Shown in pieces: positions 4,606 to 40,222 of a DNA stretch of 44,301 nucleotides. The first letter of the stretch is position 1. Each line of letters starts with the position of its first letter. The DNA is from Candidatus Nanoarchaeia archaeon. Its GTDB lineage: Archaea > Nanobdellota > Nanobdellia > Woesearchaeales > DSVV01. Where the stretch lies: contig JBMCCQ010000002.1 in NCBI GenBank assembly GCA_048618745.1, positions 1 to 44,301 on the forward strand. Direction: 5' to 3'. Below the pieces are notes generated by a model. It did no database searches and had not been told where the DNA came from. It worked only from the letters and a program-made list of their open reading frames with translations. The translations under genes were made by a program, and so were the position numbers.

Positions 4606-5379
4606 CTATTCTGTCATTTTCCTGAAAAATCTTGCAAGCTGGAAATAGCTTAATGTCAAAGTCAAAACACCTATTGTAAGATATGCCTGGTAAAACTCTC
4701 CGAAACTTACTATCGGAGCATAACAAGGCATATCACTTACCTGCACATACGGCAGATCATAGTTTCCGCATAATTCTTCATTATCCTGCAATTCCCCGTT
4801 TTTGCCGCAACAGCCATCATAGTGCTGCCCTACAAATAAGCTCATTGCCAAAATAATGGTTGCAATCATTGCAATAACCCATGGCTTCTTTTTAATATTC
4901 ACAATTAAAAAGTAAAGCGGGAATATCGCGAAAAGAACACAAACACCCAGCCCAAAATGACTTATAGATAACAATTTATCAAGCGGATACTCCATAAATG
5001 TAGGCTTGATAATATTCATTGCTATAAGGATTAAAAAAACTAATGAACTAAATGCAACCGAAAATGTCCCATTCAAAAATTTAGGTTTTTTCAGGTTAAG
5101 TTCATCTGTCAGCTTAGAGTATGCAAGAGGCAGGAAAAATGCCATGCCAGCAAGACCCAGTATGCCTGTAATACGCTCCAGCAAAGTTACCCCAATAATC
5201 TTGGTTATTAAAGCTGTTGTCGCCCAGAAAAAAAGCGAAAATCCAAAGCAGCTTAAATACATCCATCCGCGCAGGCCACCTTTACTGTATCTGAAAATCT
5301 GGTAAGCGAAAAACCCCATCAATACTCCGCCAAGGATTGCCAAGGTTCTGAAAATTATTGTAATCATGTTTATTTCCAT
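4606..5379 (-). CDS. 7-TM membrane protein with conserved Cys-rich loop, paralog 1 of 3 (family not recognised)
   Basis: GGTGA SD before the ATG. Seven hydrophobic segments. Loop GQHYDGCCGK...LCGNYDLPYVQVSDMPC lies between TM6 and TM7. Confidence 0.8.
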   Translation of the reverse strand: MEINMITIIFRTLAILGGVLMGFFAYQIFRYSKGGLRGWMYLSCFGFSLFFWATTALITKIIGVTLLERITGILGLAGMAFFLPLAYSKLTDELNLKKPKFLNGTFSVAFSSLVFLILIAMNIIKPTFMEYPLDKLLSISHFGLGVCVLFAIFPLYFLIVNIKKKPWVIAMIATIILAMSLFVGQHYDGCCGKNGELQDNEELCGNYDLPYVQVSDMPCYAPIVSFGEFYQAYLTIGVLTLTLSYFQLARFFRKMTE

Positions 5380-5510: not shown

Positions 5511-6281
5511 TTAGTTGGTTATTTGCTTAAATCCCCTGGACAACTGGTAAAAACTTCCTGCCAAAAGCAGCACGCCAACAGTCAAGTAAGCCTGATACAT
5601 CTTGCCGAAATTCACTATTGGCTCAAAGCATGGTGCATCAGTTACCTGAACATAAGGTAAATCATAATCACCACACAAGCTATCATTATCCTCTAATTCT
5701 CCTTCTTTTGCGCAGCAACCGTCATAGTGCTGTCCAATCATTAAGCTTGAGAAAATAACAACTGTAGCAATTGTTGCAAGAATCCATGATGATTTTTTTA
5801 TGTTTTTTGAAAGCACATACAAGGGGATTAATGCAAACACCAGGGTTATTGCCAGTGTAAAATGACTTATTGATAACAATTTATCAAGAGGGTACTCCAG
5901 AAAAGTAGGCTTAAACACATTTAAAACCAAAAGCAACAAAAACACTGCTGCAGTTGAGCCTAACGAAATTTTAGCAGTAAACCATGATGGTTTAAGGTTA
6001 AGCTCATCGGTCATCTTAGCATAAGAATATGGGACAAACACAGCCATGCCCAGTAATCCAATGATTCCAGTAATACGCTCGAGAACTGTGACACCAATTA
6101 ATTTTGTAATCAGAGCACTAACCGCCCAAAAACAAAGAAACCCTCCATAAATCGCGATGTATTTCCAGCCCTTCAGCCCTCCTTTACTCAGGGTGTAAAT
6201 CTGAAATGCAAAGATTCCTATTAAAACACCGGCTAAAATTGCCAGTAATCTGAAAACAATTGTTACTGTATTTATTGCCAT
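5511..6281 (-). CDS. 7-TM membrane protein with conserved Cys-rich loop, paralog 2 of 3
   Basis: The ATG at 6281 (MAINTVTIVF) is preceded by GGTGAT and aligns with the N-termini of the other two paralogs. The track start at 6368 adds a non-homologous extension. Confidence 0.8.
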   Translation of the reverse strand: MAINTVTIVFRLLAILAGVLIGIFAFQIYTLSKGGLKGWKYIAIYGGFLCFWAVSALITKLIGVTVLERITGIIGLLGMAVFVPYSYAKMTDELNLKPSWFTAKISLGSTAAVFLLLLVLNVFKPTFLEYPLDKLLSISHFTLAITLVFALIPLYVLSKNIKKSSWILATIATVVIFSSLMIGQHYDGCCAKEGELEDNDSLCGDYDLPYVQVTDAPCFEPIVNFGKMYQAYLTVGVLLLAGSFYQLSRGFKQITN

Positions 6282-6392
6282 TGGATCACCTTTTTTAGTT
6301 AAATAGCAATAAAAAGACATATTGATAAATATAAATCTTTCCATAATAATTGCTTTATTTTCAAACAAAAAGATTTCAAAAATAACAAAAAG

Positions 6393-7163
6393 TTAGCCGT
6401 TTAACTTGCGAAATTCCCTTGCTATCAAGTAAAAGCTTACTGCTGCCATTAAAACTCCTACTCCCAGGTAAGATTGATAAAACTGACCCGTTTGTACCAT
6501 TGAACCATAACATGGAGCATCAGTTACTTGTACATAAGGCAGGCTATAACCCTCGCAGACACTTTCTTCCTGCATATCCCCATAATCTCCGCAACACCCT
6601 GCATAATGCTGGCCTACAAGCATACTGGCAGCTAAAATTATTGTACCCAATGTTAGTAACACCCAAGGCGCCTTCCTAATATTTTTTGTAAGAATTATTA
6701 AAGGTATCAAAGCAAGAACCATACTAAACCCAAGAGTAAAGTGAATTATCGCCAAAATTTTACTAACAGGATTATCCATAAAGGTAGGCTTCAACAAATT
6801 GTATACCAACAGTGCTACAATAACAACTGAAACAACAACAATTGAAAATTTTGTATTAAACCAACCAGGCTTTTTTAAGTTTAGCTCCCCCGAAAGTTTA
6901 GTGTATGCAGCAGGGATGTAATAAGACAACCCTAACAATCCAATAATACCGCAAATATATTCAAGAATTTTTACACCCATTAATTTTGTAAGTAACGCCG
7001 TAACAGCCCAAAAACAAAGAAACCCACCATAAATTGCGATGTACTTCCAGCCCTTCAGGCCGCCTTTACTGAATTTGTAAATCTGGTAGGCAAATACACC
7101 AATTAGTACGCCACCTAAAACTGCCAACAACCTAAATATTAATGTAATTGAATTTGTTTCCAT
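6393..7163 (-). CDS. 7-TM membrane protein with conserved Cys-rich loop, paralog 3 of 3
   Basis: AGGTGA SD. Collinear with paralogs 1 and 2. Loop GQHYAGCCGD...VCEGYSLPYVQVTDAPC. Confidence 0.8.
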   Translation of the reverse strand: METNSITLIFRLLAVLGGVLIGVFAYQIYKFSKGGLKGWKYIAIYGGFLCFWAVTALLTKLMGVKILEYICGIIGLLGLSYYIPAAYTKLSGELNLKKPGWFNTKFSIVVVSVVIVALLVYNLLKPTFMDNPVSKILAIIHFTLGFSMVLALIPLIILTKNIRKAPWVLLTLGTIILAASMLVGQHYAGCCGDYGDMQEESVCEGYSLPYVQVTDAPCYGSMVQTGQFYQSYLGVGVLMAAVSFYLIAREFRKLNG

Positions 7164-10864: not shown

Positions 10865-11836
10865 TTAAAACAATGCACCAACAAAAAATCTGCTGATAAA
10901 AAATATTGTGACTGAGATGACTGCAATTATTGGTGCATATCTCAACCCGTAAGTTTTATTGCCCTCAGATATCACTCCCATTAAAATAGCAGAAAATATG
11001 GATGTTGAAAGCATTAATGCCATAGCAAGAACAAATATAAATTCAGAGGAGACCGCTACCTCTCCTGCCATGAGACCTAGCTCAAACTCTTCAGCAGCGG
11101 CAGCGCCACCACCACCCATACCCTCAATCATGCTTATAAACTGGATTGAAATTGCAAACAACAGAGGACTTCCGATTACCACAGTAAATAGAATAAACAT
11201 TGTGTAAGTCTTTGTGCCTGTAGTAAGATCCTTTTTCAGGCTTTTAGTTTCATTCATATCATTGGCAGTCTCCTCCATAAGCTCAGCCATGTGACTTCCC
11301 GAATAAAGTGAAGTAACAAAAAGGTTCACAACCCTGTCCAGAAGCTTAGAATCAATTGTTTCCTTAATTTCATGCAAAGCATGCTCAAAACTACCTGAGC
11401 CAAGCCCCTTGGTAGTTGCAATTTCTATTTCATCGCGCAGCGGACCAAACTCAGGCCTTGCAGCAGACTTAAGAGCCTGAAAAGGGGTAAGACCAGCTCT
11501 TAGGCTTGAAGAAACAATATGCAAAAAATCCGGCAGCACGCTCTCAACTTTATCCCTTCGGTCTTCAATTTTAAAATTAATAAGCAGCAGGTCAACCATA
11601 ATAATAAGGGGCAGAATAAAAATTCCCAGCGGCACTCCAATGAAAATGTAATCAGGATATAGAAAAACACCAGTAAATACATTGATAGCAAAGAGAGCTA
11701 TAAAAATCAAAATTGAAATGCCAAGTCTTTTTTCAGGATTTACTTTCAACCCTGAAACCTGTAGCTTACTTTTGTAATGCTCCTTTAGTTTACTCGGAAA
11801 AAAGCTACCTAATCCCTTTATCAGCTTAATTGTCAT
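10865..11836 (-). CDS. Type IV pilus platform protein, T2SSF domain (TadC/EpdK/FlaJ-C-like)
   Basis: LPDFLHIVSSSLRAGLTPFQAL T2SSF motif flanked by TM helices. 1-nt gap from the upstream platform gene. Confidence 0.8.
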   Translation of the reverse strand: MTIKLIKGLGSFFPSKLKEHYKSKLQVSGLKVNPEKRLGISILIFIALFAINVFTGVFLYPDYIFIGVPLGIFILPLIIMVDLLLINFKIEDRRDKVESVLPDFLHIVSSSLRAGLTPFQALKSAARPEFGPLRDEIEIATTKGLGSGSFEHALHEIKETIDSKLLDRVVNLFVTSLYSGSHMAELMEETANDMNETKSLKKDLTTGTKTYTMFILFTVVIGSPLLFAISIQFISMIEGMGGGGAAAAEEFELGLMAGEVAVSSEFIFVLAMALMLSTSIFSAILMGVISEGNKTYGLRYAPIIAVISVTIFFISRFFVGALF

Positions 11837-11837
11837 T

Positions 11838-12731
11838 TTAAAAGTTAATTGCCGGCCTCCTTGAATGTATTAAACCTATTATCACATACTGGACCAGTAA
11901 ACAAAGCACTCCAAATACTATAAAAAGTCCTCTTGTAAGGCCAAAACCGGAAAATGTTGTTAAAATCAGCATAAGTGTCAGACCAATAGTAGGAATCGCA
12001 ACCGCAAAAAGCATGTAAATAAGTGACCAAAGGTTTAACTCCTGGGCATAATTTCTTATTTTCTCCTTATGATTCTGCAGCTGCTCAGTTATTACAATCC
12101 TTAACGCTGTCTTAAGGTTGCTTCCGGATTTAAGGACATTAACAATCTGCCATACTGTACGTTTCATATACTCAGAACTTGTACGAAGAGCCATCTCTTC
12201 AAGGGCTGCTTCCAGCGGCCTTCCTGACTGAACCTGTTTTGCAACCTTTTCAAATTCCTTGCTTACTTCACCATAATCAGAATTTGCAATTGAAACCAAT
12301 GCATCATAAAGCTGTGTTCCTGCACTAACCTTTAATAATAGGTCTTTTAAAGCAAATATCAGGTTACTTTCAATTTTTTCAGCATTCTTACCTGCAACAA
12401 CTTTTGGATACCTTATTGTAACAACAGCAATCAATAGAAACAAAAACAATCCTAAGCCTACACTATAATATATGGCCTCAATAATTGGCCGTGCATCAAG
12501 GCCTACTATCAAAGCAAAAAGGAATATTCCTGAAAACAACATCCAGCAAAGTGCATTAAGAGTGACAAGCACAGAATAAGTGTCTTTGTCTGTACCCATA
12601 TCAGCTGTTCTCAAATCATCTTCCAGCGTAGGAAAAAAAGAATTAACCAGCCTGCTTATAATACTTAGTTTCTTTGAGACTTGTTTTGCCCTTATTTCGG
12701 GAAAATAAATAAATGGAACTCTTTGCTTCAT
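11838..12731 (-). CDS. Type IV pilus platform protein, T2SSF domain (TadB/EpdJ/FlaJ-N-like)
   Basis: T2SSF-like cytoplasmic domain (ALKDLLLKVSAGTQLYDAL...SGRPLEAALEEM) plus TM helices. 2-nt gap after the ATPase gene. Confidence 0.8.
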   Translation of the reverse strand: MKQRVPFIYFPEIRAKQVSKKLSIISRLVNSFFPTLEDDLRTADMGTDKDTYSVLVTLNALCWMLFSGIFLFALIVGLDARPIIEAIYYSVGLGLFLFLLIAVVTIRYPKVVAGKNAEKIESNLIFALKDLLLKVSAGTQLYDALVSIANSDYGEVSKEFEKVAKQVQSGRPLEAALEEMALRTSSEYMKRTVWQIVNVLKSGSNLKTALRIVITEQLQNHKEKIRNYAQELNLWSLIYMLFAVAIPTIGLTLMLILTTFSGFGLTRGLFIVFGVLCLLVQYVIIGLIHSRRPAINF

Positions 12732-12733
12732 TT

Positions 12734-14287
12734 TCAGGCCTCGCTTAGCACATCATAAATTGTTTTGTTCTGCCTTATAAATTCAAGAAGTTTTTCTCTG
12801 TCTTTATAGTAACTCTTCATAACCTTTCCAATAGAATCCGTTTTAAAAACCTCATTTTTAACCATCCATTCTAGTATAGTTTTGCGCTTATCAAGGTCTT
12901 CCTGCATTTCTTTAGGGGTCATGCCTGTCCTGAGGTTAAGATCTTCAACAATTCTTACGCAATCATCAACTTTTTCAAACGTATCTGATTTTGGCCGCCA
13001 TCTATATAAATAATTTACTTTGAGCTCATCGTCCATTATCCCTCCTCTTAAAACTTCAGCAACTTCAAGTGTTCTTCTCACATTTCTCTTTCTGTCCCTG
13101 TGTTGAACAAGTACAAGGTGCAGGGCCTCTGCCTCATTTTTAGGAATAGAAATTGGCGGTTCAAGAATTCTTCTTGTTAACTGCTCCACAGTGTCCGCGT
13201 GCATAGTTGTATACACACTATGACCTGTGTGCATTGCTTCAAACATAGTTTCTGCCTGCTCTCTTTTCCGGACTTCTCCTACAATAATCCTGTCAGGTCT
13301 CATCCTCAGGCTTGCTACAATCAGGTCAAGCATGCTTATGCTCCCTTCACCTTCTGTGTTTTCCTTACGACTAACCATTGGTATCCAATTCCAGTTCAAA
13401 TCCCTTGGAAGAACAAATTCACGGGTATCTTCAACAGAGATTATCCTCTGGTTTTTAGGAAGTAGAGCGCATAAAGCATTTAATACAGATGTCTTGCCCG
13501 AAGCAGTTCCGCCGCAGACAAGAATATTTAGCTCATATTCAAGTGCCTGCCAGAGTAAAGCAGCAATATCTTTTGTCATAACACCAAATTTTTCTGAAAC
13601 AAAATGTGTAATAGTCCATGGGCTTCTTGAAAACCTCCTGAAAGTAATTGTATTTCCTGAAGAGCTAATAGGAAAAAGTGTTGCTGCCACCCTGTCTCCT
13701 GAAACTAGATGAGCATCCATAATTGGATTCAGGTTATTAATCTCTCTGCCAACTTTTCTTCCAATCATTGCCGCATAATTATAAATCTGCTCTTCACTGT
13801 CAACATACGTTGTGGTTTTTAGCCATCCATAATGCTTATGATAAACTGAAATAGGCCTGTCAGAGCGGTTAAGACAAATCTCTTCTAAGAGATTATCAGC
13901 CATTATAATATCCATTTTTCCAAAACCATACATTGTCTGTACAATAATTCCTGCAATACACTTTTGCTCGGCAAGCGTAGAATTAGGAAACAACCCTTTT
14001 ACCTTGTCTAATGCGTTTATAAAAAATTTTTCTCGCAGTTTTTGAAGCTTAGTCGGATTGGTAATTTCCTCCTTAGAAACCTTTGTTTCAGAAGACAATT
14101 GGTTCATAATGTCAACAATTAAAAGGTCAGTCTCCTGGGACATATTGGGAAGCTTAACATCATAAATTGCTACATTTTCCCCCCAGACTTCACTAATTGT
14201 AACCTTGGCAGGGACATGGTCAGAAGTAACCTCATATGATTCAAGCACCTTTCCTTCAATTGGATGAATGCTGCTTCCCTTAGCCAT
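12734..14287 (-). CDS. Type II/IV secretion-family assembly ATPase (FlaI/ArlI / EpdL / TadA-like)
   Basis: Walker A CGGTASGKTS, Walker B-like RIIVGEVR, His-box TMHAD. Size and domain order match archaeal T4P ATPases. Confidence 0.9.
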   Translation of the reverse strand: MAKGSSIHPIEGKVLESYEVTSDHVPAKVTISEVWGENVAIYDVKLPNMSQETDLLIVDIMNQLSSETKVSKEEITNPTKLQKLREKFFINALDKVKGLFPNSTLAEQKCIAGIIVQTMYGFGKMDIIMADNLLEEICLNRSDRPISVYHKHYGWLKTTTYVDSEEQIYNYAAMIGRKVGREINNLNPIMDAHLVSGDRVAATLFPISSSGNTITFRRFSRSPWTITHFVSEKFGVMTKDIAALLWQALEYELNILVCGGTASGKTSVLNALCALLPKNQRIISVEDTREFVLPRDLNWNWIPMVSRKENTEGEGSISMLDLIVASLRMRPDRIIVGEVRKREQAETMFEAMHTGHSVYTTMHADTVEQLTRRILEPPISIPKNEAEALHLVLVQHRDRKRNVRRTLEVAEVLRGGIMDDELKVNYLYRWRPKSDTFEKVDDCVRIVEDLNLRTGMTPKEMQEDLDKRKTILEWMVKNEVFKTDSIGKVMKSYYKDREKLLEFIRQNKTIYDVLSEA

Positions 14288-14290
14288 AGC

Positions 14291-15595
14291 CTACATTTTC
14301 CTCCTTTTTGTTTTTCTGGTTGCTTTTTTAGGAGAGCCCCGGGTAGTTTTTTTCGTTGTCCTTTTTTTAGCTGTTTTGTTGGTAGAACTCTTAGCAGCCT
14401 TATTTGACTTGACTTTGGATACTGAAGAACCCCCTCTGGCTGTTTTCTTAGTTGATTTTCTGATTGATTTTTTGGTAGAACTGCTGGCCAAAGTTTTTGA
14501 TTTGCCTGCCTTTTTTGTGGATTTTTGTGTGCTCTTTTTTGTACTTGTTTTGGCTGTCTGCGTTTTAGTGGATGACTTCTTCGTCCTTTTGGGTGCGCCT
14601 TTATTTGCTTTCTTTGTGGATTTATGGACAGGTTTTTTTGTTTTATAGGATGAAGATTTTGTTTTGGCCTTTTCTTTGGTTGTTTTTTTGGTGGAACTTC
14701 CAGCAGCCTTTTTAGTTGAACTTGTTGAAGATTTTTTCGCCGAAAGTTTCTTTTCCAGGCTTTTTATTGACTTGGTGAGCTCAGCAATTTTTTTATTGCC
14801 CTGATTAATCATTTCCTTAAGCTCGTTAATCTTTTTATCCTGTTTATTCTGGACATCTTTTTGCTCCTTGTTTTGTTTTGCATTTTCCTTCACATTTCTC
14901 TGAAGTTTCTCAATTTCCTTGATTATTGCTTTGTCATTGCGGGAAAGCTCTTCAGATGATTTTGAGATATTATCAGCTTTTTTATCAATATTTGAGAGAA
15001 GATTACTTACGAGGCGCTCTATATTATCTACACTGCTTAACCTTTTTTCCAGCCCGTCGGTTTTATCATTAAGCTGAGCAATAGCCTCCTCCACCTGTTT
15101 AAAGGTTTCCCTGTTCTCGTCCTCGGACTGCTTGAGTTGATTTTTCAAATTTTCAAAATGCTCAAAAATAAGTTTTAAAAAGCTAGCACTCTTTGCCTTT
15201 CCAACAAGCTCTTGCTGATTGGTATTCCTCAGATTTTCCGGGTTTTCTTGATTTCCTGTCTTTTTTGGAATATCTTTTGTGCCAATTTCCTGACTCTGGC
15301 TATCTTCCTCAGGTTTTTTTCCATTTTTTTCAGCATTTGGAGTTGTAATTTCCTGGTTTTGCTCCTTTGGTTTTTCCTCAGGTTGCTGCTGATTTTGTTG
15401 TTCACTTTTTCCCATAAATCCAAAAAAGCCCTTTTTTTGCTGCTTTTCAACCTGTTTCTCTTCAACAGTATAATCACTTTCCTTTTTTTCCTCTGCATGC
15501 TCTTCTGATAACCCACCAGCCTGGGCATGTGTTCCACAGTATGGACAAAAAACATCATCAGCACCCAGATCCGCTTTGCAGGATGGACATTTCAT
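14291..15595 (-). CDS. Zinc-ribbon / coiled-coil protein with 150-aa Lys/Ser/Thr-rich basic tail (histone H1-like low complexity)
   Basis: N-terminus CPSCKADLGADDVFCPYCG, then a Q/E/K-rich linker and heptad-like coiled coil. The C-terminal 150 aa (14294-14743) is made of STKK/SPKK-type repeats. Confidence 0.7.
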   Translation of the reverse strand: MKCPSCKADLGADDVFCPYCGTHAQAGGLSEEHAEEKKESDYTVEEKQVEKQQKKGFFGFMGKSEQQNQQQPEEKPKEQNQEITTPNAEKNGKKPEEDSQSQEIGTKDIPKKTGNQENPENLRNTNQQELVGKAKSASFLKLIFEHFENLKNQLKQSEDENRETFKQVEEAIAQLNDKTDGLEKRLSSVDNIERLVSNLLSNIDKKADNISKSSEELSRNDKAIIKEIEKLQRNVKENAKQNKEQKDVQNKQDKKINELKEMINQGNKKIAELTKSIKSLEKKLSAKKSSTSSTKKAAGSSTKKTTKEKAKTKSSSYKTKKPVHKSTKKANKGAPKRTKKSSTKTQTAKTSTKKSTQKSTKKAGKSKTLASSSTKKSIRKSTKKTARGGSSVSKVKSNKAAKSSTNKTAKKRTTKKTTRGSPKKATRKTKRRKM

Positions 15596-15940
15596 CTACT
15601 TCACCTCTTTTCCGCATTTAGTACAGAACTTTGCATTTTCTTTTAATGGATTACCACAATTAGGACAGGCATTTTTCGGTTCATTGCTTTCAGGCATCAC
15701 TTTCTTTATTCTATCAGGCTTTTTTTTATCAGCTAAAAAATATACAGGCGAGCCAATTAAAGGATACTTAGCCTTAATCTTTTTTGCCCTGCTTAAGATT
15801 TCAGCATATTTTTGTACATGCTTTTTATCAAGATTAAGACTCTTGCACACGTAAGGTTCAGAAACCGTTCCTTCTTCTCTTATTAATCCATAAAACTTAT
15901 CAATATCTGTTTGAATAGTATGAAGCTCTTTAGTATCCAT
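15596..15940 (-). CDS. Small protein with a possible winged-helix N-domain and C-terminal zinc ribbon
   Basis: C-terminus CPNCGNPLKENAKFCTKCG. The N-terminal 70 aa has an HTH-like pattern (SEPYVCKSLNLDKKHVQKYAEILSRAKKI...YPLIGSPVYF). The wHTH call is tentative. Confidence 0.5.
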   Translation of the reverse strand: MDTKELHTIQTDIDKFYGLIREEGTVSEPYVCKSLNLDKKHVQKYAEILSRAKKIKAKYPLIGSPVYFLADKKKPDRIKKVMPESNEPKNACPNCGNPLKENAKFCTKCGKEVK

Positions 15941-15955
15941 TAGTTTCCCCCTTTT

Positions 15956-16777
15956 TTAATCAGCCGTCAGACGAATTGTGTTACTGCCGGAAAAATTGTT
16001 TTTTTTATCCCTGATTATTGTATTCCCCCCCGCATTTAAATATATTTTGCTTTTATCTGCATTCTCCATTTCAAGCCTTAGATTAACCTCTGCCTCTATA
16101 TCCCTGTACGCTGTTACATCCATAATACTGTTGGTTACGTTAACGAAGAAAAGAGGCTTAGGTTCACTGCTGTTAAAGATGACAGAAAAAAAATTATCCC
16201 CGCTAATCTCAATGTTTCTGTTTCGCTCCAGCAGTATTTGGCCATCGCTATCCAATACTTTAAGAAATAACTCTGTTTCTCCGGATTCATAGGATTCATT
16301 TGTATTGTTTAAATATGAGGCACCGTCGCTTAATTCCGCTGTAATATAAATGGAGGAAACATTCTTATTTATCCTGCTTCTGTGAAGATAATGATTTTTA
16401 GTAAAATTTAACTTAAAAGGCGACAAAATGTAGTTTGGGCTTAAATTCAGCATAACATCAAGATTATTCGCCTGCGCATAATAATTCTCAATGTAATGTG
16501 TATATTCATTTAATAAAAACGAGGGATCCTCACGCTCCCTTGATAATATGAACTCTTGCTCAAAACTCCTCTTGGAAAAATCAATTATTTCAAATTCCAT
16601 AATATCAATAAAATTTACTGCAATTGTATTTTCAATCTGTTTTAATTTGGTTGAGACCATACTCTCAGAAAGCATGTTTTCATAATCAGCTTGCCGCTGC
16701 ATGATAGCAACTGAAGTCATAACAAGGCCTCCAAGCAAGACAATCATTAAAATACTGTAGAGCAATGATTTTTTCAT
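15956..16777 (-). CDS. N-terminally anchored extracytoplasmic protein, pilus-associated by context
   Basis: MKKSLLYSILMIVLLGGLVMTSVAIM anchor. 4-nt overlap with the upstream pilin-like gene. Asn/Ser-rich beta-type body. Confidence 0.5.
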   Translation of the reverse strand: MKKSLLYSILMIVLLGGLVMTSVAIMQRQADYENMLSESMVSTKLKQIENTIAVNFIDIMEFEIIDFSKRSFEQEFILSREREDPSFLLNEYTHYIENYYAQANNLDVMLNLSPNYILSPFKLNFTKNHYLHRSRINKNVSSIYITAELSDGASYLNNTNESYESGETELFLKVLDSDGQILLERNRNIEISGDNFFSVIFNSSEPKPLFFVNVTNSIMDVTAYRDIEAEVNLRLEMENADKSKIYLNAGGNTIIRDKKNNFSGSNTIRLTAD

Positions 16778-17181
16778 TTATACCACATCTCAATCTCTGC
16801 ATTGTAGATATCCTGCTCATAAATAAAGGGCATTGTAGCAATAGCTTCATCTTCGGGACTTTGAAGCTCACACCCGGGTTTTATAGCATTAAAAGACCAT
16901 TCACGGTCCTTATTTGCGATGGTAACATTAGCGCAAACATTATATGATGTGTATTTTTGCAGAAAAATTGAGACATGCTCAACTCTGCCTGCCATTACAG
17001 CATCTGCGAGCAACCCCTTATGATTCATCAGATTAAGTGTATCATACGCAGTATATTCAAGTTTATTATTATCCATATCAAAATCAATCATAAAAAAAAC
17101 ACTGGTAATTGCGGTTAATACCATAACTGTAGCAATCAATGCATCCAATGAAAACAGTATCCCGCGTTTCAAGTAACACAC
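16774..17181 (-). CDS. Class III signal peptide (prepilin-like) protein, minor pilin candidate
   Basis: MCYLKRG/ILFSLDALIATVMVLTAITSVFF: a short basic leader, Gly, then a hydrophobic helix. Confidence 0.6.
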   Translation of the reverse strand: MCYLKRGILFSLDALIATVMVLTAITSVFFMIDFDMDNNKLEYTAYDTLNLMNHKGLLADAVMAGRVEHVSIFLQKYTSYNVCANVTIANKDREWSFNAIKPGCELQSPEDEAIATMPFIYEQDIYNAEIEMWYK

Positions 17182-17744
17182 CCTTTTAGTATTATCCTAT
17201 ATATATCATTAGCATTCCCTGAAGCCAGCCTTTCATGTTGACTTGTTATTTCACATCCCCCCATATAACCAATTTCCCATGAATCCGTTACATTGTAGCT
17301 TGAATTAAACCTTTTTACATTCAGTTTGAATTCATACCCCGGACCTCTAACTCCAAGCAAAGTCTTAATATCTTCATAACTTTCATTATGGTTTAAGGCA
17401 GCCACCTTATCCTTATCAAAATGGCCGTATCTGCCTGTAGTCAACCCCAGCGAGCTGATTTTTTCTGCATCAATTGAAGAGTAATCACTCCAGTTATACG
17501 GCTCGCCTGGATGAGTCATCAGGCTTTCTAAGGCATAAGCGGTTACAAGTTCAAGGTCATTAGCTTTTTCCTCCTGCTCAAAAGAAAATCGTACATCATC
17601 CCAGAAAACTACTAGGGACAGAAAAATAGTAATAAATATCACACCAGATACAATAAAATCTACTGAGTGAACCTGCCCTTTAGTCAAGAACAATCCTATC
17701 ACCCTCATTAACAATGCTGTTTTGCCCAATTTCCAACTCCCCAC
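17169..17744 (-). CDS. Class III signal peptide (prepilin-like) protein, minor pilin candidate
   Basis: ...LTKG/QVHSVDFIVSGVIFITIFLSLVVFW. The start is ambiguous: GTG at 17744 or ATG at 17708. Confidence 0.55.
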   Translation of the reverse strand: MGSWKLGKTALLMRVIGLFLTKGQVHSVDFIVSGVIFITIFLSLVVFWDDVRFSFEQEEKANDLELVTAYALESLMTHPGEPYNWSDYSSIDAEKISSLGLTTGRYGHFDKDKVAALNHNESYEDIKTLLGVRGPGYEFKLNVKRFNSSYNVTDSWEIGYMGGCEITSQHERLASGNANDIYRIILKGCVT

Positions 17745-18078
17745 TAATCTCAGATGTCAGCACAGGATAAGTATAATGAATATCCTCAAGCGAAATAACA
17801 ACCTCTCTGGAGTCCCCTATAACTTTTAATGAATAATTGCGGCTATGAATATCTTGAGGAAGGTATAGCTCTGCTTTTGAATTGTTTCCTGCCAAATGCA
17901 CATCATTTATGGTAAGTCCAACCCTTTCAGCGATTGTTTTTGCCTCAAGACGAAGAGCAGTATTGTCGAATTGACTGTTTTTATCCTGAATTAATGCAAA
18001 AAAAGAAAGAAATATTATCAAAAGTATTGCAAGTATAAGGGTAAATTCAATTGTCGCCTGAGACTTTTTTAAGGACAT
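17680..18078 (-). CDS. Class III signal peptide (prepilin-like) protein, minor pilin candidate
   Basis: MSLKKS/QATIEFTLILAILLIIFLSFF, with Glu at about +5 of the predicted mature end. Confidence 0.6.
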   Translation of the reverse strand: MSLKKSQATIEFTLILAILLIIFLSFFALIQDKNSQFDNTALRLEAKTIAERVGLTINDVHLAGNNSKAELYLPQDIHSRNYSLKVIGDSREVVISLEDIHYTYPVLTSEISGELEIGQNSIVNEGDRIVLD

Positions 18079-18908
18079 GATGAATTATCACCTATACAGC
18101 TGCCCTGGAAACAATTCCCCCATCTTCCTCCTTTGCAGCTTTCATAACATCCTGAGCCATCAGATCCATCCTCACACCAGGTGCATTCGCTATCCAGAGT
18201 GCATTGGGCGCAAGAACCCCTTTCCGTACACTCTTCAGGAAGACATTCCATTGCAAGGTCACAATCAGGATCCTCACAGTCAACGTATCCGTCGAGGTCA
18301 TTATCAATATTGTCTGAGCAGTCCTCTCCTGGATATGGTGAGCAGTCGCTTGTATCAATCATGCAATTACTACACTCCAGCTCCCCTGATTCATAGCCAA
18401 AATATTCACAATCCTTGCCCCCGAAATTCGTCCCGTCGCATTCTTCACCCGAATTAATTATTCCGTTTCCGCAGTTTTCATAATCATCCCAGATTGCGCT
18501 TATATTTTCAGAAATTAAAACAACACCTAAGCCTGAACCAACCTCCAGCCATAAACCCCCTTCTCTTGTAGGAATTGAACCCGCCACATCATACTTAAAA
18601 GATGTGTGTTTTTTCCCGCCGTCATTAGAGGATATTTCAATTGTTTTATTTTCTAACGTTATGTTTTCAATATTCTCCGGCAAATTCACAAATATTTTCT
18701 TTTTTGAGCCTACACCTTCCCGGTAAACCTCGTTAGCTGTAGAGTGAATTTTTTCAAGAGCTGACTCTGCCTTTTTTTGACGCATAACAGTTTCATAATT
18801 ATCCATTGCCCTGTCTGAATAGCTTATGATTGCAATCACTACAATTAAGGATACAGCAAGCAATAATATTAATTCTAGACTTCCCTGTGCACGCTTCAAA
18901 CACCCCAC
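18069..18908 (-). CDS. Pilin-like protein with C-terminal Cys-rich module (myxo-type CGNG..GEECD repeat, DNDxDG acidic repeat, PSI-like CxxC...CxWC)
   Basis: N-terminus MGCLKRA/QGSLELILLLAVSLIVVIAIIS. The C-terminal ~140 aa contains about 24 Cys: CGNGIINSGEECDGTN..., DCSDNIDNDLDGYVDCEDPDC, CAQCTLDSECTWCEDG. Confidence 0.7.
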   Translation of the reverse strand: MGCLKRAQGSLELILLLAVSLIVVIAIISYSDRAMDNYETVMRQKKAESALEKIHSTANEVYREGVGSKKKIFVNLPENIENITLENKTIEISSNDGGKKHTSFKYDVAGSIPTREGGLWLEVGSGLGVVLISENISAIWDDYENCGNGIINSGEECDGTNFGGKDCEYFGYESGELECSNCMIDTSDCSPYPGEDCSDNIDNDLDGYVDCEDPDCDLAMECLPEECTERGSCAQCTLDSECTWCEDGSDGSGCYESCKGGRWGNCFQGSCIGDNSSCP

Positions 18909-18914
18909 CTCTTT

Positions 18915-19958
18915 TTAATAAACGTTTTCTTCCGGATAAACAGTTATCCCGTCTGAACTGATTTTTAAAGGGTTAATCTTTGTTGAGTGACTCGTCCCCC
19001 TCATCTTAAATACTTCTATACTTCTCTCTCTGACATCCTCTTTTTTAGTATGATACATATAAATTATTCCTTCCGACTGGAATTCTTCCATTGTTGCTGA
19101 GTATACCTCTGGCTTTACAGTGTGCTCTGATATTAAAAGACTGGTACAATCCCATTTCTTAAGTATTTTGAACAAAGACATTAATGCGCGCCTTCTCTGA
19201 TTTTCATTTTCATAAAGCATAGAAAATGCAGTAATGGAATCAATCACGACCCTTTTTGCATTTATCTCATCAATAACTTCCCTTACAGGCCCGCCTCCAA
19301 TATAAAGTACCCTGTCAACCTGCTCAGGCGAATAATATAGTATTGCCAGCTGCTTGTTCTTTAGCTTCTCTTCTATTCCCCAGTTAAAACGCTTCATGTC
19401 TTCTATCAGGCTTTCAACATCCTCCTCAAATGTTATATAAACTCCCGGCTCACCGTATCTTTCAATACCATTTATAAGTGTCTGCATAGCAAAAATGCTT
19501 TTTCCAGAGCCGGGTCCCCCGCAAACAAGCGTAACTGAATCTCTTATAAGCCCACCTTCAATAAGCTCATCAAAGCCTTCAATACCCGTAGGTGTCCTTG
19601 GAAGGGTAACAGGGGTTTCTTTCACACCCCCCTCTTTTAGTGAATCCTTAACAGTTGACTTTAAAAAGGCCATATCAATTTTTTTATTACTAGGCTCGGA
19701 ACCGGTTTTAATATTTTTCATAATCTCTTGTTTTAATCCTGAGAAGGGTGAATTCTTGCGAGACTTAGAAGACGTTTCATTTTTTATTTCGTTTTTAAGG
19801 CCTGAAAAAGGAGAATTGTTTTTGGCTTTTCCTCCAGTATTCATATCTTTTTGTATATTTTCTTTTAGTCCTGCAAAAGGGGATTTCTTGGATTTTTTCG
19901 CAGACTTGGAATTAGCTTTACTTTTAGTACTTTTTTTGCTTTTCTTTGTGTTTGCCAT
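18915..19958 (-). CDS. KaiC/RecA-superfamily ATPase (ArlH/FlaH-like) with basic N-terminal extension carrying 3x SPF[AS]GLK motifs
   Basis: Walker A GGPGSGKS, Walker B-like RVVIDSITAF, single KaiC-like domain. The N-terminal 110 aa is low complexity with three repeats. Confidence 0.8.
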   Translation of the reverse strand: MANTKKSKKSTKSKANSKSAKKSKKSPFAGLKENIQKDMNTGGKAKNNSPFSGLKNEIKNETSSKSRKNSPFSGLKQEIMKNIKTGSEPSNKKIDMAFLKSTVKDSLKEGGVKETPVTLPRTPTGIEGFDELIEGGLIRDSVTLVCGGPGSGKSIFAMQTLINGIERYGEPGVYITFEEDVESLIEDMKRFNWGIEEKLKNKQLAILYYSPEQVDRVLYIGGGPVREVIDEINAKRVVIDSITAFSMLYENENQRRRALMSLFKILKKWDCTSLLISEHTVKPEVYSATMEEFQSEGIIYMYHTKKEDVRERSIEVFKMRGTSHSTKINPLKISSDGITVYPEENVY

Positions 19959-19988: not shown

Positions 19989-20462
19989 TTATTCGGAGTT
20001 ATCGGGGTTAGCACACTCTCCTGTAAGCTGCTCTCCATCACCATCCATTGTGTAACTTGAACCACTTTGCTGGTCCTCATAGGTTATTTCCAATGGATAT
20101 GAGAAACTCTCTCCGGCACTACAATCCAAATCATCGTCCTCTAAGGTAATGGTTGTAGACCCACCTGGCCCTAGTGTCCTTTCTTCACTATTATTAACAT
20201 CATTCAAACTTACATTCTCTACAGTTACTGCATTCCTCAGGTTATTCTTAAGACTGAGAGTAGCATTTCCTCCTTCATTCACCGAATACGATGAAATACC
20301 TATATCCTGGGTGGACCAGTAGGCCTGTGCACCCCTCTCACTGGTACTCTCCCCAATTCCGGGGAATCTTCCCATTGCCACTACAACTACCAGGGCAATT
20401 ACTATCACAACAGCCAGAATAATCAAGTATTCTGTGGCTGTCTGACCTCTTTTTCCTTCCAT
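19989..20462 (-). CDS. Major pilin candidate, class III signal peptide (DUF361-like)
   Basis: MEGKRG/QTATEYLIILAVVIVIALVVVVA, a small (157 aa) Ser/Thr/Asn-rich body, and the strongest SD in the operon. Confidence 0.8.
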   Translation of the reverse strand: MEGKRGQTATEYLIILAVVIVIALVVVVAMGRFPGIGESTSERGAQAYWSTQDIGISSYSVNEGGNATLSLKNNLRNAVTVENVSLNDVNNSEERTLGPGGSTTITLEDDDLDCSAGESFSYPLEITYEDQQSGSSYTMDGDGEQLTGECANPDNSE

Positions 20463-20484: not shown

Positions 20485-21018
20485 TTATTCAACTTTCTCC
20501 AGTTTATCCACAAACATGCTAAGCTTTTCAATGATGTTTGCTTCATCATTGCCGTCAAGACAAATGAGTATGAATTTAGAGCTTTTTGCTCTCAGCTTAT
20601 TTATTAAATCTTTTGTAAACTTTATAATCATCTGCTCAGGGTTATATATTAACAGAGTTGAAAGGCTGTCAAAAAAGACAAACTTCGGCTCAGAGGCCTC
20701 CACGACCTTGTTTATCGCAATTGAGAGGTTTGTAAGAGCTGAGGGGGACTCAATAAAAAGGCAGTTATCAGCTTGTGGGTCCTCCTTGCCTGTCATTTTA
20801 GTTGAAGTGTCGATAAAAAATATATTATCAGTATTAACCTTTTGTTTTTTAAATGATTCAACCAGCGATTGATAAGGCCGGCTTAATGCTACATATGAAG
20901 ATATATTTTTGCCTAAATAATTTTTGGTAAAGGACCTAACAAATTCCTGGTACTTGTCATGCTTTACTACAAAAAGCATTACCTGATTGTTCTCTATGTC
21001 CTCCTTATAATCCATCAT
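20485..21018 (-). CDS. KaiC/RecA-fold-like protein lacking a P-loop (predicted inactive paralog)
   Basis: FVFFDSLSTLLIY parallels RVVIDSITAFSMLY of the neighbouring KaiC-like ATPase, but there is no GxxGxGKS/T. 4-nt overlap with cheC-like. Confidence 0.4.
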   Translation of the reverse strand: MMDYKEDIENNQVMLFVVKHDKYQEFVRSFTKNYLGKNISSYVALSRPYQSLVESFKKQKVNTDNIFFIDTSTKMTGKEDPQADNCLFIESPSALTNLSIAINKVVEASEPKFVFFDSLSTLLIYNPEQMIIKFTKDLINKLRAKSSKFILICLDGNDEANIIEKLSMFVDKLEKVE

Positions 21019-21638
21019 TCCTTCACTTTTTCATTTATTATTTTTAGTAATGTTTTAAATGACTTGTGCGTCAATAGAAGAATGCTTTGCCCTGAAATTT
21101 CATTTTTGCCAATGTTAAACCTTGTATCAATTTCAATAAGTATCGCATGCTCACTGTCCTTTTTCAAATCAAAAAATACATAATCATATATCTGGCTCCC
21201 AAAAGACGGAACGACTGTAGGTACACTATGCCAGGCATCAACACCAAGGAATTTATTGAGAATCCCTAAGACTTTACCTGCAACCATATTTCCTATCTCA
21301 CCTAAAGTGTTTTTAACATCTTCATTTACAATTTTTGTGGAAGTTGTCCTTCTTTTTTTCAGGGCATCATAAAGATTTAGTGCTGAATCCTTTGGAAATG
21401 CTAGCAAAATGTTGCCTTCCAGGTCTCCTTTTTGAATGTTTGAATAAATACCAAGGTGCATTACGGGCTCTTTTTCAGCATCCGTTTCCTTTTTATCCAG
21501 AGATACTATATCCTTATTTAGAACTTTTAAATCAACCGGGCCGCCGGTAAGTTTACCCATCGTCATTGAGATATGCTGGGAGAACATATTTGTAATCTCC
21601 ATAAGTGCATCTCTTTCAACCTTTGTTAATTTGACCAT
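21015..21638 (-). CDS. cheC: CheC-family (CheC/CheX/FliY) CheY-P phosphatase-like protein
   Basis: First site ERDALMEITN fits D/S-x3-E-x2-N. The second, NTLGEIGN, is a degenerate copy. Size about 200 aa. Start overlaps the cheY stop (TAATG). Confidence 0.65.
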   Translation of the reverse strand: MVKLTKVERDALMEITNMFSQHISMTMGKLTGGPVDLKVLNKDIVSLDKKETDAEKEPVMHLGIYSNIQKGDLEGNILLAFPKDSALNLYDALKKRRTTSTKIVNEDVKNTLGEIGNMVAGKVLGILNKFLGVDAWHSVPTVVPSFGSQIYDYVFFDLKKDSEHAILIEIDTRFNIGKNEISGQSILLLTHKSFKTLLKIINEKVKE

Positions 21639-22024
21639 TAAGTCTGCACCCGCTTTAAGTTGTTTTCAATTGCCTTTGCAAGCTCATCATCTGCAAAAGG
21701 CTTACTAATATACCCTGCCGCACCCAGCCTATTGGCCTCATTCCTTAACTTTTTCTGGTCCAGCGCAGAAACTATTATACAGATGGTATTTGAATATTTT
21801 TCCTTAATCTGCTTTAATACCTCAAGGCCATCCAGTCCATACATGTTTATATCCAGGAATACCACGTCGGAGCCTTCCGAGTCAATAACTTTTAATCCCT
21901 CCTCGCCAGAAGATACAGATTTTATGTTCTTATAGCCGAACTTTTTCAGATTATCAGCTATCAACTTACGCATGAAATCAGAATCATCTATTACAAGAAT
22001 CCTCAGCTCTTCCTTTTTTCCCAT
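21638..22024 (-). CDS. cheY: CheY-like single-domain response regulator
   Basis: LVIDDS (acidic pocket), FLDINM (phospho-Asp), VSA (Thr/Ser), SKPF (Lys). 128 aa with no output domain. Confidence 0.85.
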   Translation of the reverse strand: MGKKEELRILVIDDSDFMRKLIADNLKKFGYKNIKSVSSGEEGLKVIDSEGSDVVFLDINMYGLDGLEVLKQIKEKYSNTICIIVSALDQKKLRNEANRLGAAGYISKPFADDELAKAIENNLKRVQT

Positions 22025-40221: not shown

Positions 40222-40222
40222 A

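What the first reader, a model, noticed from the sequence alone, without database searches (positions are those of the whole stretch)
18069..18908. Pilin-like protein tipped with a eukaryote/myxobacteria-style Cys-rich module, with a local GC spike
Seen in sequence:
- The N-terminus is a class III signal/pilin helix (KRA/QGSLELILLLAV).
- The last ~140 aa carries about 24 Cys arranged as CGNGxxxxGEECD (the pattern of the Myxococcus cysteine-rich repeat), DCSDNIDNDLDGYVDCEDPDC (an acidic DxDxDG calcium-type repeat) and CAQCTLDSECTWCEDG...C (a PSI plexin-semaphorin-integrin-like pattern).
- Two 60-nt lines I hand-counted in this region (18121-18240) are 48% and 53% G+C, against 22-35% in lines I counted elsewhere in the operon.
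- The ORF track shows three spurious overlapping ORFs here, i.e. a local lack of stop codons.

Inference: a disulfide-rich adhesin domain has been grafted onto a minor or tip pilin. It may have been acquired horizontally, and it could mediate host or surface attachment.
Basis: partly seen in the sequence, partly recalled or inferred. Interest (0 to 1): 0.65.

Follow-up and report, generated by a model that had tools for sequence, protein, structure and literature searches.

The report
Archaeal pilin with cysteine-rich tail
This gene encodes a pilus subunit of a tiny DPANN archaeon that carries three small disulfide-rich modules on its outer end. It is the shortest member of a large, inherited family of "carrier pilins" with interchangeable tails, not a foreign graft.

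Summary
The ORF is real but starts at TTG 18899 (276 aa), not GTG 18908. It has a class III signal peptide, a confidently predicted pilin fold and a 135-aa tail with 20 cysteines.

The tail has three modules:
- a variant of the TIGR02232/DUF4215 repeat;
- one acidic double-disulfide repeat (NF033662, E 1e-8);
- a C-terminal cap. Three independent sub-threshold searches matched this cap almost only to PSI domains.

The GC spike is real: 46.9%, the highest coding stretch in the window. Amino-acid composition fully explains it (expected 45.7±1.3%, z 0.9), so there is no compositional sign of horizontal transfer.

The pilin module has 431 homologous clusters, always at the N-terminus, in proteins of 88-1821 aa. 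About 70% of the best 150 carry C-terminal extensions, including lectin-like, Ig-like, MG2 and β-propeller domains. The closest relatives (433-1296 aa) have the same three modules in the same order.

The gene holds the same operon position, directly after a KaiC-like ATPase and before four further pilin-like genes, in another DPANN lineage. The tail is under purifying selection (dN/dS 0.07).

Verdict: a modular, probably tip-located minor pilin of an archaeal type IV pilus. The pilin reading is supported, horizontal transfer is not, and adhesion is inferred only. It is a new member of a known kind.

The parts
18888..18899 (-). Probable true start (TTG 18899) and short basic leader MKRA of the class III signal peptide. 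Predicted prepilin-peptidase cleavage falls before Gln5.
   Evidence: A GAGGTG motif lies 6 nt upstream of the TTG. P0001 and the gene calls in L001-L003 start at MKRAQGS. Q5 and E9 are invariant across the family.
18717..18887 (-). Hydrophobic N-terminal alpha-1 helix of the pilin module (residues 5-61).
   Evidence: PF04021 scores 27.0 bits against a 23.7 cut-off. AlphaFold2 predicts a helix at 2-61 with pLDDT 92-98.
18477..18716 (-). Globular beta-sheet head of the pilin module (residues 62-141). This is the conserved 'carrier' part.
   Evidence: AF2 predicts seven strands between residues 66 and 130 with pLDDT above 90. 431 homologous clusters match it at their N-terminus.
18342..18473 (-). 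Module 1 (Cys143-Cys186, 6 Cys): CGNGxxxxGEECD... repeat, a variant of the TIGR02232/DUF4215 cysteine-rich acidic repeat.
   Evidence: TIGR02232 gives E 0.0019 and 18 bits over profile positions 2-20 of 38. It is 50% identical to repeats of P0002 at E 1.3e-24. 23 of 150 family members have it directly after the pilin module. AF2 pLDDT is 80-90.
18243..18320 (-). Module 2 (Cys194-Cys219, 4 Cys): a single acidic double-disulfide repeat with a DNDLDGYVDCEDPDC core.
   Evidence: NF033662 gives E 1.1e-8 and 34.6 bits. The relatives P0006, P0008 and P0009 pass the curated cut-off with 7, 7 and 3 copies.
18072..18230 (-). Module 3 (Cys224-Pro276, 10 Cys): C-terminal PSI-like cap, CxxxxxCxxCxxxxxCxWC...
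   Evidence: Nine invariant columns, eight Cys and one Trp, across 8 cap sequences. It lies within the last 46-56 aa of every complete relative that has it. The PDB profile search returned only PSI domains. Foldseek on the pLDDT ~90 model returned only integrin beta chains. Pfam per-sequence hits were PSI-clan families in all but one case. No single hit is significant.
19989..20462 (-). 157-aa class III signal protein, the candidate major pilin of the same system.
   Evidence: PF04021 gives E 2.9e-4. It is orthologous to the 157-aa class III protein at the end of the Gugararchaeum operon and to the 154-aa protein in L004.
18915..19958 (-). KaiC-family ATPase directly upstream of the target.
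   Evidence: PF06745 gives E 7e-64. It holds the same position in L001, L004 and L020.
15956..18078 (-). Four further pilin-like genes (17680-18078, 17169-17744, 16774-17181, 15956-16777) with basic leaders followed by hydrophobic helices. These are candidate minor pilins.
   Evidence: N-terminal sequences. They are one-to-one collinear homologs of the four genes after the modular pilin in Ca. Gugararchaeum, at E 6e-9, 7e-13, 2e-5 and 3e-4.
10865..14287 (-). Assembly machinery: T2SSE-type ATPase (12734-14287) and a split platform protein (two T2SSF genes, 11838-12731 and 10865-11836).
   Evidence: PF00437 gives E 8e-31; PF00482 gives E 2e-18 and 2e-13. The ATPase scores 259 bits against the 550-bit cut-off of the archaellum FlaI ATPase model NF058587, so it is not an archaellum motor equivalog.

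Best explanation
The gene encodes a modular minor pilin of a type IV pilus in a DPANN archaeon.

Shown or predicted from the sequence: a class III signal peptide; a long hydrophobic alpha-1 helix and a beta-sheet head, which together form a conserved pilin 'carrier' module; and a 135-residue tail of three small disulfide-rich modules (a TIGR02232/DUF4215-type repeat, one acidic double-disulfide repeat and a PSI-like C-terminal cap).

Inferred steps:
- A prepilin peptidase encoded outside the window cuts before Gln5.
- The helix packs into the filament core.
- Together with the four pilin-like proteins encoded next to it, the protein sits in a priming complex at the pilus tip, so the tail points away from the cell.
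- The tail binds a surface or host-cell ligand, with the Asp-rich repeat probably holding calcium.

The tail was not recently imported. It is the shortest version of an architecture inherited within a large family in which one pilin carrier bears many different C-terminal effector tails.
For: Pilin identity:
- PF04021 scores above its cut-off.
- AF2 predicts a helix at 2-61 plus a beta sheet with pLDDT above 90.
- Q5 and E9 are invariant in the family.
- The gene lies in an operon with a T2SSE ATPase, two T2SSF platform genes and five other class III or pilin-like genes.

Family:
- 431 clusters match the pilin module, always at their N-terminus, in proteins of 88-1821 aa.
- 105 of the best 150 carry extensions. 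These include Laminin_G_3, MG2, FG-GAP and other propellers, Ig-like domains, DUF4215 and RTX repeats.

Inheritance:
- P0006, P0008 and P0009 share module 1, the acid repeats and the cap in the same order.
- The protein encoded after KaiC in L004 has the pilin module, module 1 and the cap, plus an extra beta domain and a second cap.
- The operon is collinear, with one-to-one homologs, with that of Ca. Gugararchaeum, where the same slot holds an MG2-tailed member.

Selection: dN/dS against L001 is 0.14 overall and 0.07 in the tail.

Modules:
- NF033662 at E 1e-8.
- TIGR02232 at E 0.0019, with an E 1e-24 match to P0002.
- The PSI-like evidence.
- These modules also occur in non-pilin secreted proteins of an archaeon (P0005) and a bacterium (P0004).

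No transfer signal: observed GC 46.9% against 45.7±1.3% expected.

Known analogy: bacterial modular pilins carry adhesive modules on a pilin carrier and are modelled at the pilus tip (PMC8179133).
Against: - No experiment or expression data exist for this gene or its family.
- Foldseek with the full-length model found no significant solved pilin, and a family profile found no pilin in the PDB by sequence.
- No prepilin peptidase was found in the window.
- Tip location, calcium binding and adhesion are analogies, not tests.
- This protein has no recognisable lectin or Ig effector domain of the kind its longer relatives have, so its tail may be only the scaffold part.
- The PSI assignment rests on hits that are each non-significant.
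Confidence: 0.72

Rival explanations
1. The tail is a structural stalk or cap, not a ligand-binding adhesin. Module 1, the acid repeat and the PSI-like cap form a rigid disulfide-stapled framework. In longer relatives this framework holds the real effector domains (lectin-like and others). This protein is a stripped-down version that only completes or stabilises the tip complex.
For: - In P0006 (1296 aa) and P0008 (813 aa), the same modules flank large inserted units, including Laminin_G_3 domains, and the cap always sits at the extreme C-terminus.
- The window protein keeps only one copy of each framework module.
- Strong purifying selection on the tail (dN/dS 0.07) fits a structural role as well as a binding one.
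Against: - Small disulfide-rich modules such as PSI and disintegrin-like repeats bind ligands themselves in other systems (general knowledge, not tested here).
- 45 of the 150 family members do without any tail, so a tail is not needed for the pilin role itself. Keeping one therefore suggests an added function.
Confidence: 0.2
2. One reading: the cysteine-rich tail was recently acquired by horizontal transfer from bacteria (myxobacteria-like) or eukaryotes and grafted onto a resident pilin.
For: - The tail is the most GC-rich coding stretch in the window.
- Repeats like module 1 also occur in a bacterial genome context (P0004, next to an ECF sigma factor).
- TIGR02232 and PSI were first described in myxobacteria and animals.
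Against: - GC and GC3 match expectation from amino-acid content and local codon usage (z 0.9 and 0.66).
- The relatives closest in the pilin module carry the same tail modules in the same order.
- The L004 protein, whose neighbouring KaiC is only 66% identical to the window's, already has module 1 and the cap.
- The acid repeat and DUF4215 occur in other archaeal secreted proteins (P0005).
Confidence: 0.04
3. It is not a filament subunit. The class III signal peptide only anchors an extracellular protein at the membrane or in a short pseudopilus, as in the Sulfolobus bindosome, where class III signals are carried by sugar-binding proteins.
For: - Archaeal class III signals are known on non-pilin substrate-binding proteins (general knowledge; the bindosome is mentioned in 10.64898/2026.04.22.720090).
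- The ATPase gives a weak match to the bindosome ATPase model BasE (137 bits against a 1000-bit cut-off).
- No filament has been seen for this organism.
Against: - The protein has a full, conserved pilin head domain rather than a binding protein directly after the helix.
- The operon holds a separate small candidate major pilin and four more pilin-like genes in a fixed order in at least two DPANN lineages. That is the layout of a pilus with a minor-pilin set.
Confidence: 0.08

Closest known systems
Bacterial modular type IV pilins (PilB and PilC of Streptococcus sanguinis; CofB of ETEC; Raynaud et al. 2021, PMC8179133)
   Same: - A small N-terminal pilin module acts as the carrier.
- A functional module that also occurs outside pilus biology is fused to its C-terminus.
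- One carrier bears many alternative tails, including concanavalin-A/LamG-type lectin domains, which family members here also have.
   Different: - This is an archaeal class III signal of the Q+1 type (PF04021), not the bacterial N-methylation motif IPR012902 used for that survey, so this family was outside it.
- The tail is three tiny disulfide-rich modules rather than one bulky vWA or lectin domain.
- No structure or binding data exist.
Archaeal TFF 'system 1' / Epd-type pili of Methanococcus maripaludis, Thermococcales and some DPANN (10.64898/2026.04.22.720090; PMC4858521)
   Same: - The platform protein is split into two T2SSF genes.
- There are many pilin genes in one operon.
- Class III signals are of the PF04021 type.
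- Some pilin-like proteins carry adhesin-like or sugar-binding domains.
- KaiC-family ATPases are associated with archaeal T4P loci.
   Different: - I did not place the ATPase in a phylogeny, so membership in system 1 rather than subsystem 4A (which also has two platform genes in some DPANN) is not settled.
- No dedicated peptidase gene lies in the locus.
- CheY and CheC-like genes sit upstream.
NCBIfam NF033662 acidic double-disulfide repeat and TIGR02232 / Pfam DUF4215 cysteine-rich acidic repeat proteins
   Same: - The same cysteine spacing and acidic cores.
- The relatives P0006, P0008 and P0009 pass the NF033662 cut-off.
- P0002 and P0005 pass TIGR02232.
   Different: - The window protein has one copy of each and falls below both whole-protein cut-offs.
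- Module 1 matches only the first half of TIGR02232 (positions 2-20 of 38) and has its own 6-Cys second half.
PSI (plexin-semaphorin-integrin) domain, Pfam PF01437 / PF17205
   Same: - The spacing C-x5-C-x2-C-x5-C-x-W-C, with the Trp invariant.
- PSI domains are the only PDB sequences, the only PDB folds and nearly the only Pfam families that the cap recalls.
   Different: - The cap has ten cysteines rather than eight.
- Every hit is below significance: the best is E 0.0037 for one relative, and the window's own cap scores 8.3 bits against a 27-bit cut-off.
- It sits at the C-terminal end of an archaeal pilin, not in an animal receptor stalk.

Membership tests
Archaeal type IV pilin (class III signal peptide protein) | [quoted passage not shown] | tested here: met
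   PF04021 scores 27.0 bits against a 23.7 cut-off on residues 5-30. Q5 and E9 are invariant in 8- and 34-sequence family alignments.
Archaeal type IV pilin (class III signal peptide protein) | Pilin fold: long alpha-1 helix packed against a beta-sheet head | tested here: inconclusive
   AF2 predicts a helix at 2-61 and seven strands at 66-130 with pLDDT above 90. Foldseek found no significant solved structure, and the family profile found no PDB pilin.
Archaeal type IV pilin (class III signal peptide protein) | Encoded with a T4P assembly ATPase and platform protein | tested here: met
   T2SSE and two T2SSF genes lie in the same minus-strand gene string. The same layout occurs in L001 and L020.
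Archaeal type IV pilin (class III signal peptide protein) | Cleaved by a prepilin peptidase and incorporated into a filament | not testable with these tools
   No Peptidase_A24 family hit among the 50 window ORFs scanned. No proteomic or imaging data are available.
Modular pilin (sensu PMC8179133) | Pilin module followed by a module that also exists outside pilus proteins | tested here: met
   Module 1 and the acid repeats occur in non-pilin proteins P0002-P0005, in bacterial and archaeal contexts.
Modular pilin (sensu PMC8179133) | The extra module performs the pilus function directly (for example adhesion) | not testable with these tools
   This requires binding and deletion experiments.
TIGR02232 / PF13948 (DUF4215) cysteine-rich acidic repeat | Profile score at or above the curated cut-off | tested here: not met
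   TIGR02232 scores 18.0 bits against 20.8, over profile positions 2-20 of 38 only. PF13948 scores 10.1 bits against 27.
TIGR02232 / PF13948 (DUF4215) cysteine-rich acidic repeat | Significant homology to repeats that are members | tested here: met
   P0002 (PF13948 precomputed; TIGR02232 at 48.9 bits in 4 stretches) matches the window protein at E 1.3e-24 and 50% identity.
NF033662 acidic double-disulfide repeat | Profile match and whole-protein cut-off | tested here: inconclusive
   A single copy gives E 1.1e-8 and 34.6 bits, below the 41-bit whole-protein cut-off. The relatives P0006, P0008 and P0009 pass with 142.6, 114.5 and 60.3 bits.
PSI domain (PF01437 / PF17205) | Profile score at or above the gathering threshold | tested here: not met
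   The window cap scores 8.3 bits (E 2.7) against a cut-off of 27. The best relative reaches E 0.0037 for PF01437.
PSI domain (PF01437 / PF17205) | Cysteine and Trp spacing and fold | tested here: inconclusive
   The spacing and Trp are invariant in 8 sequences. The only PDB sequence hits are integrin beta-2 and plexin-A2 PSI domains, at E 3-10. The only Foldseek hits are integrin beta chains, at E 4.9-6.8 over 28-34 columns.
Horizontally acquired segment | Composition or codon usage departs from the host genome beyond what the amino acids require | tested here: not met
   Observed GC is 46.9% against 45.7±1.3% expected. GC3 is 40.7% against 38.1±3.9% expected. 22-26% of control coding stretches are at least as deviant.

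The most novel reading that the evidence does not exclude
DPANN archaea keep one conserved 'carrier' tip pilin whose C-terminal tail is swapped between lineages (cysteine-rich knots, lectins, MG2, Ig-like domains, propellers). That tail would decide which host cell or surface an episymbiont's pilus grabs. The cap would be a true archaeal PSI domain, giving this 'animal' receptor module a prokaryotic relative.
Probability: 0.2. Interest if true: 0.7.

Novelty: new member of a known kind. Interest (0 to 1): 0.35.

Why it matters
DPANN archaea are mostly tiny cells that live attached to other microbes, and how they recognise and hold their hosts is largely unknown. If this family is a pilus-tip carrier with exchangeable tails, it gives concrete candidate host-recognition proteins that can be compared across genomes and tested by binding assays. 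The published survey of modular pilins covered bacteria only, so this would extend the idea to archaea. For this particular gene the practical result is more modest. It should be annotated as a modular minor pilin with a shifted start codon, and its GC spike should not be read as foreign DNA.

Tried and rejected
- Pfam on the tail as a whole and on its parts gave nothing significant.
- The search for homologous proteins with the 34-sequence family alignment was swamped by words from the variable tails. Only 8000 candidates were scored and 3 hits returned.
- The same tool with the cap alignment returned nothing at E<=10.
- Foldseek with the full-length model gave only noise: proteasome, PBP1a and RPA hits at E>=0.02. 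The long helix and the unmodelled cap are the likely cause.
- The family profile against PDB sequences found no pilin. It gave only weak disintegrin-domain hits on the CGNxxxExGEECD motif (E 5.8-6.7). I treat that as a lead only.
- The listing of cluster members gave no names for the module relatives.
- Spurious ORF was considered and rejected, on dN/dS 0.14 and 431 homologous clusters.
- Archaellum was considered and rejected. There is no archaellin family hit, and the ATPase scores 259 bits against the 550-bit cut-off of the archaellum FlaI ATPase model.
- A thrombospondin type 3 calcium repeat was considered for the acidic motif, but Pfam gave no hit at E<=10.
- I could not read model coordinates, so no disulfide map was derived.
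Full report
**1. What is in the sequence**

The minus-strand ORF 18069..18908 exists. Its first listed codon, GTG at 18908, lies inside a GAGGTG Shine-Dalgarno-like motif. A TTG three codons downstream (18899) gives MKRAQGS.... A 96%-identical protein from a Nanoarchaeota metagenome-assembled genome (P0001) starts the same way. I therefore use 18069..18899 and 276-residue numbering.

Pfam's class III signal peptide model matches above its cut-off, at 27.0 against 23.7 bits. The tail, residues 142-276, holds 20 cysteines, not about 24. That is 14.8% of its residues, the highest density in the window. The three overlapping ORFs over the tail are also there.

**2. The GC spike**

The tail codons are 46.9% G+C, against 36.8% for the window and at most 44.0% in any other 405-nt coding stretch.

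I redrew synonymous codons for the same amino acids from the codon usage of 49 other window genes. The expected G+C was 45.7±1.3% (z 0.9), and GC3 gave z 0.66. Between 22% and 26% of control stretches deviate at least as much. The spike is therefore a consequence of Cys, Gly, Asp and Glu codons, and there is no compositional sign of foreign origin.

**3. The gene is real and constrained**

Against the near-identical locus L001, the gene shows 21 synonymous and 12 non-synonymous differences, giving dN/dS 0.14. The pilin part gives 0.24. The tail gives 0.07, from 12 synonymous and 4 non-synonymous changes.

**4. The pilin module**

AlphaFold2 with a 34-sequence family alignment predicts a helix at residues 2-61 and a seven-stranded sheet at 66-130. 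pLDDT is above 90 for these parts, 80-90 for module 1 and about 80 for the acid repeat. The cap was not modelled in that run.

I searched residues 1-142 against 1.84 billion cluster representatives. This gave 431 clusters at E<=1e-3 and 85 at E<=1e-10. For all of the best 150 listed, the match starts within the first 42 residues, in proteins of 88 to 1821 aa. Q5 and E9 are invariant in the family alignments. This is the Q+1/E+5 arrangement of the PF04021-type archaeal prepilins; that interpretation is general knowledge and was not tested here.

No solved structure is significantly similar, either by fold or by profile.

**5. One carrier, many tails**

Of the best 150 clusters:
- 45 are bare pilins of 170 aa or less, and 105 carry C-terminal extensions.
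- 23 have the CGNxxxxGEECD module directly after the pilin module.
- 7 match an acidic-repeat pattern.
- 5 end in the same cap, always within the last 46-56 residues.

A Pfam scan of 82 members found Laminin_G_3, MG2, FG-GAP and other beta-propellers, Ig-like domains, DUF4215 and RTX repeats in the tails.

The relatives closest in the pilin module are P0006 (1296 aa), P0008 (813 aa) and P0009 (433 aa). They have module 1, acid repeats and the cap in the same order as here, with large additional units in between. The window protein is the minimal form of this architecture.

**6. Conserved operon position**

In the window, the minus-strand string reads:
- CheY, a CheC/CheX-like protein and a short KaiC-like protein;
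- a 157-aa class III pilin and a KaiC ATPase;
- the target, then four more pilin-like genes;
- two zinc-ribbon proteins;
- a T2SSE ATPase and two T2SSF platform genes.

L001 is collinear from KaiC onward, where the contig begins.

In L004, where the neighbouring KaiC is 66% identical to the window's, the gene after KaiC encodes a pilin module (46% identical), then module 1 (58% identical) and a cap. A beta-rich domain and a second cap follow, there is no acid repeat, and the gene runs off the contig end.

Ca. Gugararchaeum adminiculabundum is a different DPANN lineage. There, KaiC is followed by a family member with an MG2-type tail (P0042), four pilin-like genes, the ATPase, two platform genes and a 157-aa class III pilin. 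Each is the best or only match of its window counterpart. The carrier and its slot are therefore conserved across lineages, while the tail changes.

**7. The three tail modules**

*Module 1* (Cys143-Cys186, 6 Cys) matches TIGR02232 at E 0.0019, but only over the first half of the model. The repeats of P0002 behave the same way, and they match the window protein at E 1.3e-24. It is a variant of that repeat with its own second half.

*Module 2* (Cys194-Cys219, 4 Cys) matches NF033662 at E 1.1e-8. The 34.6 bits of a single copy fall below the 41-bit whole-protein cut-off, which relatives with 3-7 copies pass easily.

*Module 3* (Cys224-Pro276, 10 Cys) has nine invariant columns, eight cysteines and one tryptophan, across eight sequences. 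Three independent searches all point one way:
- A profile search of all PDB sequences returned three hits at E<=10: two integrin beta-2 fragments that hold the PSI domain, and the plexin-A2 PSI region.
- A second AlphaFold2 run on residues 191-276 gave pLDDT about 90 for the cap. Foldseek with it returned four hits at E<=10, all integrin beta chains.
- Scanning the eight caps one by one against Pfam gave PSI_integrin for 4, PSI for 2 (best E 0.0037) and PSI_Plexin-B for 1, with a single unrelated hit.

None of these is significant alone. Together I put the PSI relationship at about 0.7.

The same kinds of module occur in non-pilin proteins. One is in a bacterial context (P0004, beside an ECF sigma factor) and one in an archaeal context (P0005, beside S27e, S24e, Spt4 and Rpb7).

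**8. Mechanism**

The best-supported reading is a modular minor pilin. The pilin module inserts into the filament, and the disulfide-rich tail projects outward.

Tip placement is inferred from three things:
- the bulk of the tails in the family;
- the fixed set of five neighbouring pilin-like genes, separate from a small candidate major pilin;
- bacterial modular pilins, which carry adhesive modules and are modelled at the tip (PMC8179133).

Adhesion and calcium binding by the Asp-rich repeat are inferences.

The locus resembles archaeal TFF system 1 in its split platform and its many pilins. That system is reported in methanogens, Thermococcales and DPANN (10.64898/2026.04.22.720090). KaiC-family ATPases are known companions of archaeal T4P loci (PMC4858521). 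The ATPase is not an archaellum motor equivalog, at 259 bits against the 550-bit cut-off of the archaellum FlaI ATPase model. No prepilin peptidase is encoded in the window.

**9. Rivals**

- Horizontal graft: refuted by sections 2, 5 and 6.
- A scaffold-only tail without binding function: cannot be excluded, because this protein lacks the lectin-like inserts of its longer relatives.
- A bindosome-like anchored surface protein: unlikely, given the conserved pilin head and the operon layout.

**10. Source and novelty**

Sequencing runs holding this stretch come from hypersaline lake and microbial mat metagenomes. The closest genome is labelled Nanoarchaeota.

Two literature searches found modular pilins described for bacteria, and adhesin-like pilins mentioned for some archaeal systems. 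They found no description of this DPANN family.

I rate it a new member of a known kind. It is worth correct annotation and is a reasonable candidate for host-attachment studies, but it is not a surprising object in itself.

Noticed in passing
window 18915-19958 (-): The KaiC-family ATPase has a Lys/Ser-rich N-terminal extension of about 115 aa. It holds three copies of an SPF[AS]GLKxEI motif ahead of the ATPase domain, which starts near residue 120.
   Followed up: no
window 20485-22024 (-); L004 5836-7382: A CheY receiver, a CheC/CheX-like phosphatase and a short KaiC-like (DUF7504-like) protein sit directly upstream of the pilin genes. The order is the same in L004, but they are absent from the Gugararchaeum locus. 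This looks like chemotaxis-type regulators wired to a pilus, with no archaellum genes in view.
   Followed up: partly
window 4606-5379, 5511-6368, 6393-7163 (-): Three tandem paralogous membrane-protein ORFs share near-identical N-terminal segments (...IIFRxLAILGGVLxGxFAYQI...KGGLxGW) and have no Pfam family.
   Followed up: no
window 10865-19958 against L001: Synonymous divergence between the two near-identical strains varies about sevenfold along one operon. dS is 0.018 in KaiC and 0.135-0.139 in the target and the ATPase. This suggests a mosaic history or recombination.
   Followed up: partly
window 38557-42359 (+): Three consecutive ORFs of 554, 266 and 447 aa have almost no cysteine and no convincing Pfam family. 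They lie in a stretch with very strong AT skew, up to 0.55.
   Followed up: no
window 14291-15940 (-): Two zinc-ribbon proteins lie between the pilin genes and the assembly ATPase. One is 114 aa; the other is 434 aa with a coiled-coil, SMC-like middle. They are conserved in L001 but absent from the Gugararchaeum operon.
   Followed up: partly
L004 (CAYOOQ010000007.1): The contig is labelled 'uncultured Methanosarcinales archaeon', yet it carries the same DPANN-type pilus operon with 57-76% identical proteins. The label may be a binning or naming error.
   Followed up: no
window 18342-18473 (-), module 1: The family profile's only PDB sequence hits are disintegrin domains of snake-venom metalloproteinases, aligned on CGNxxxExGEECD (E 5.8-6.7). 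They are not significant, but hint at a link between DUF4215-type repeats and disintegrins.
   Followed up: no
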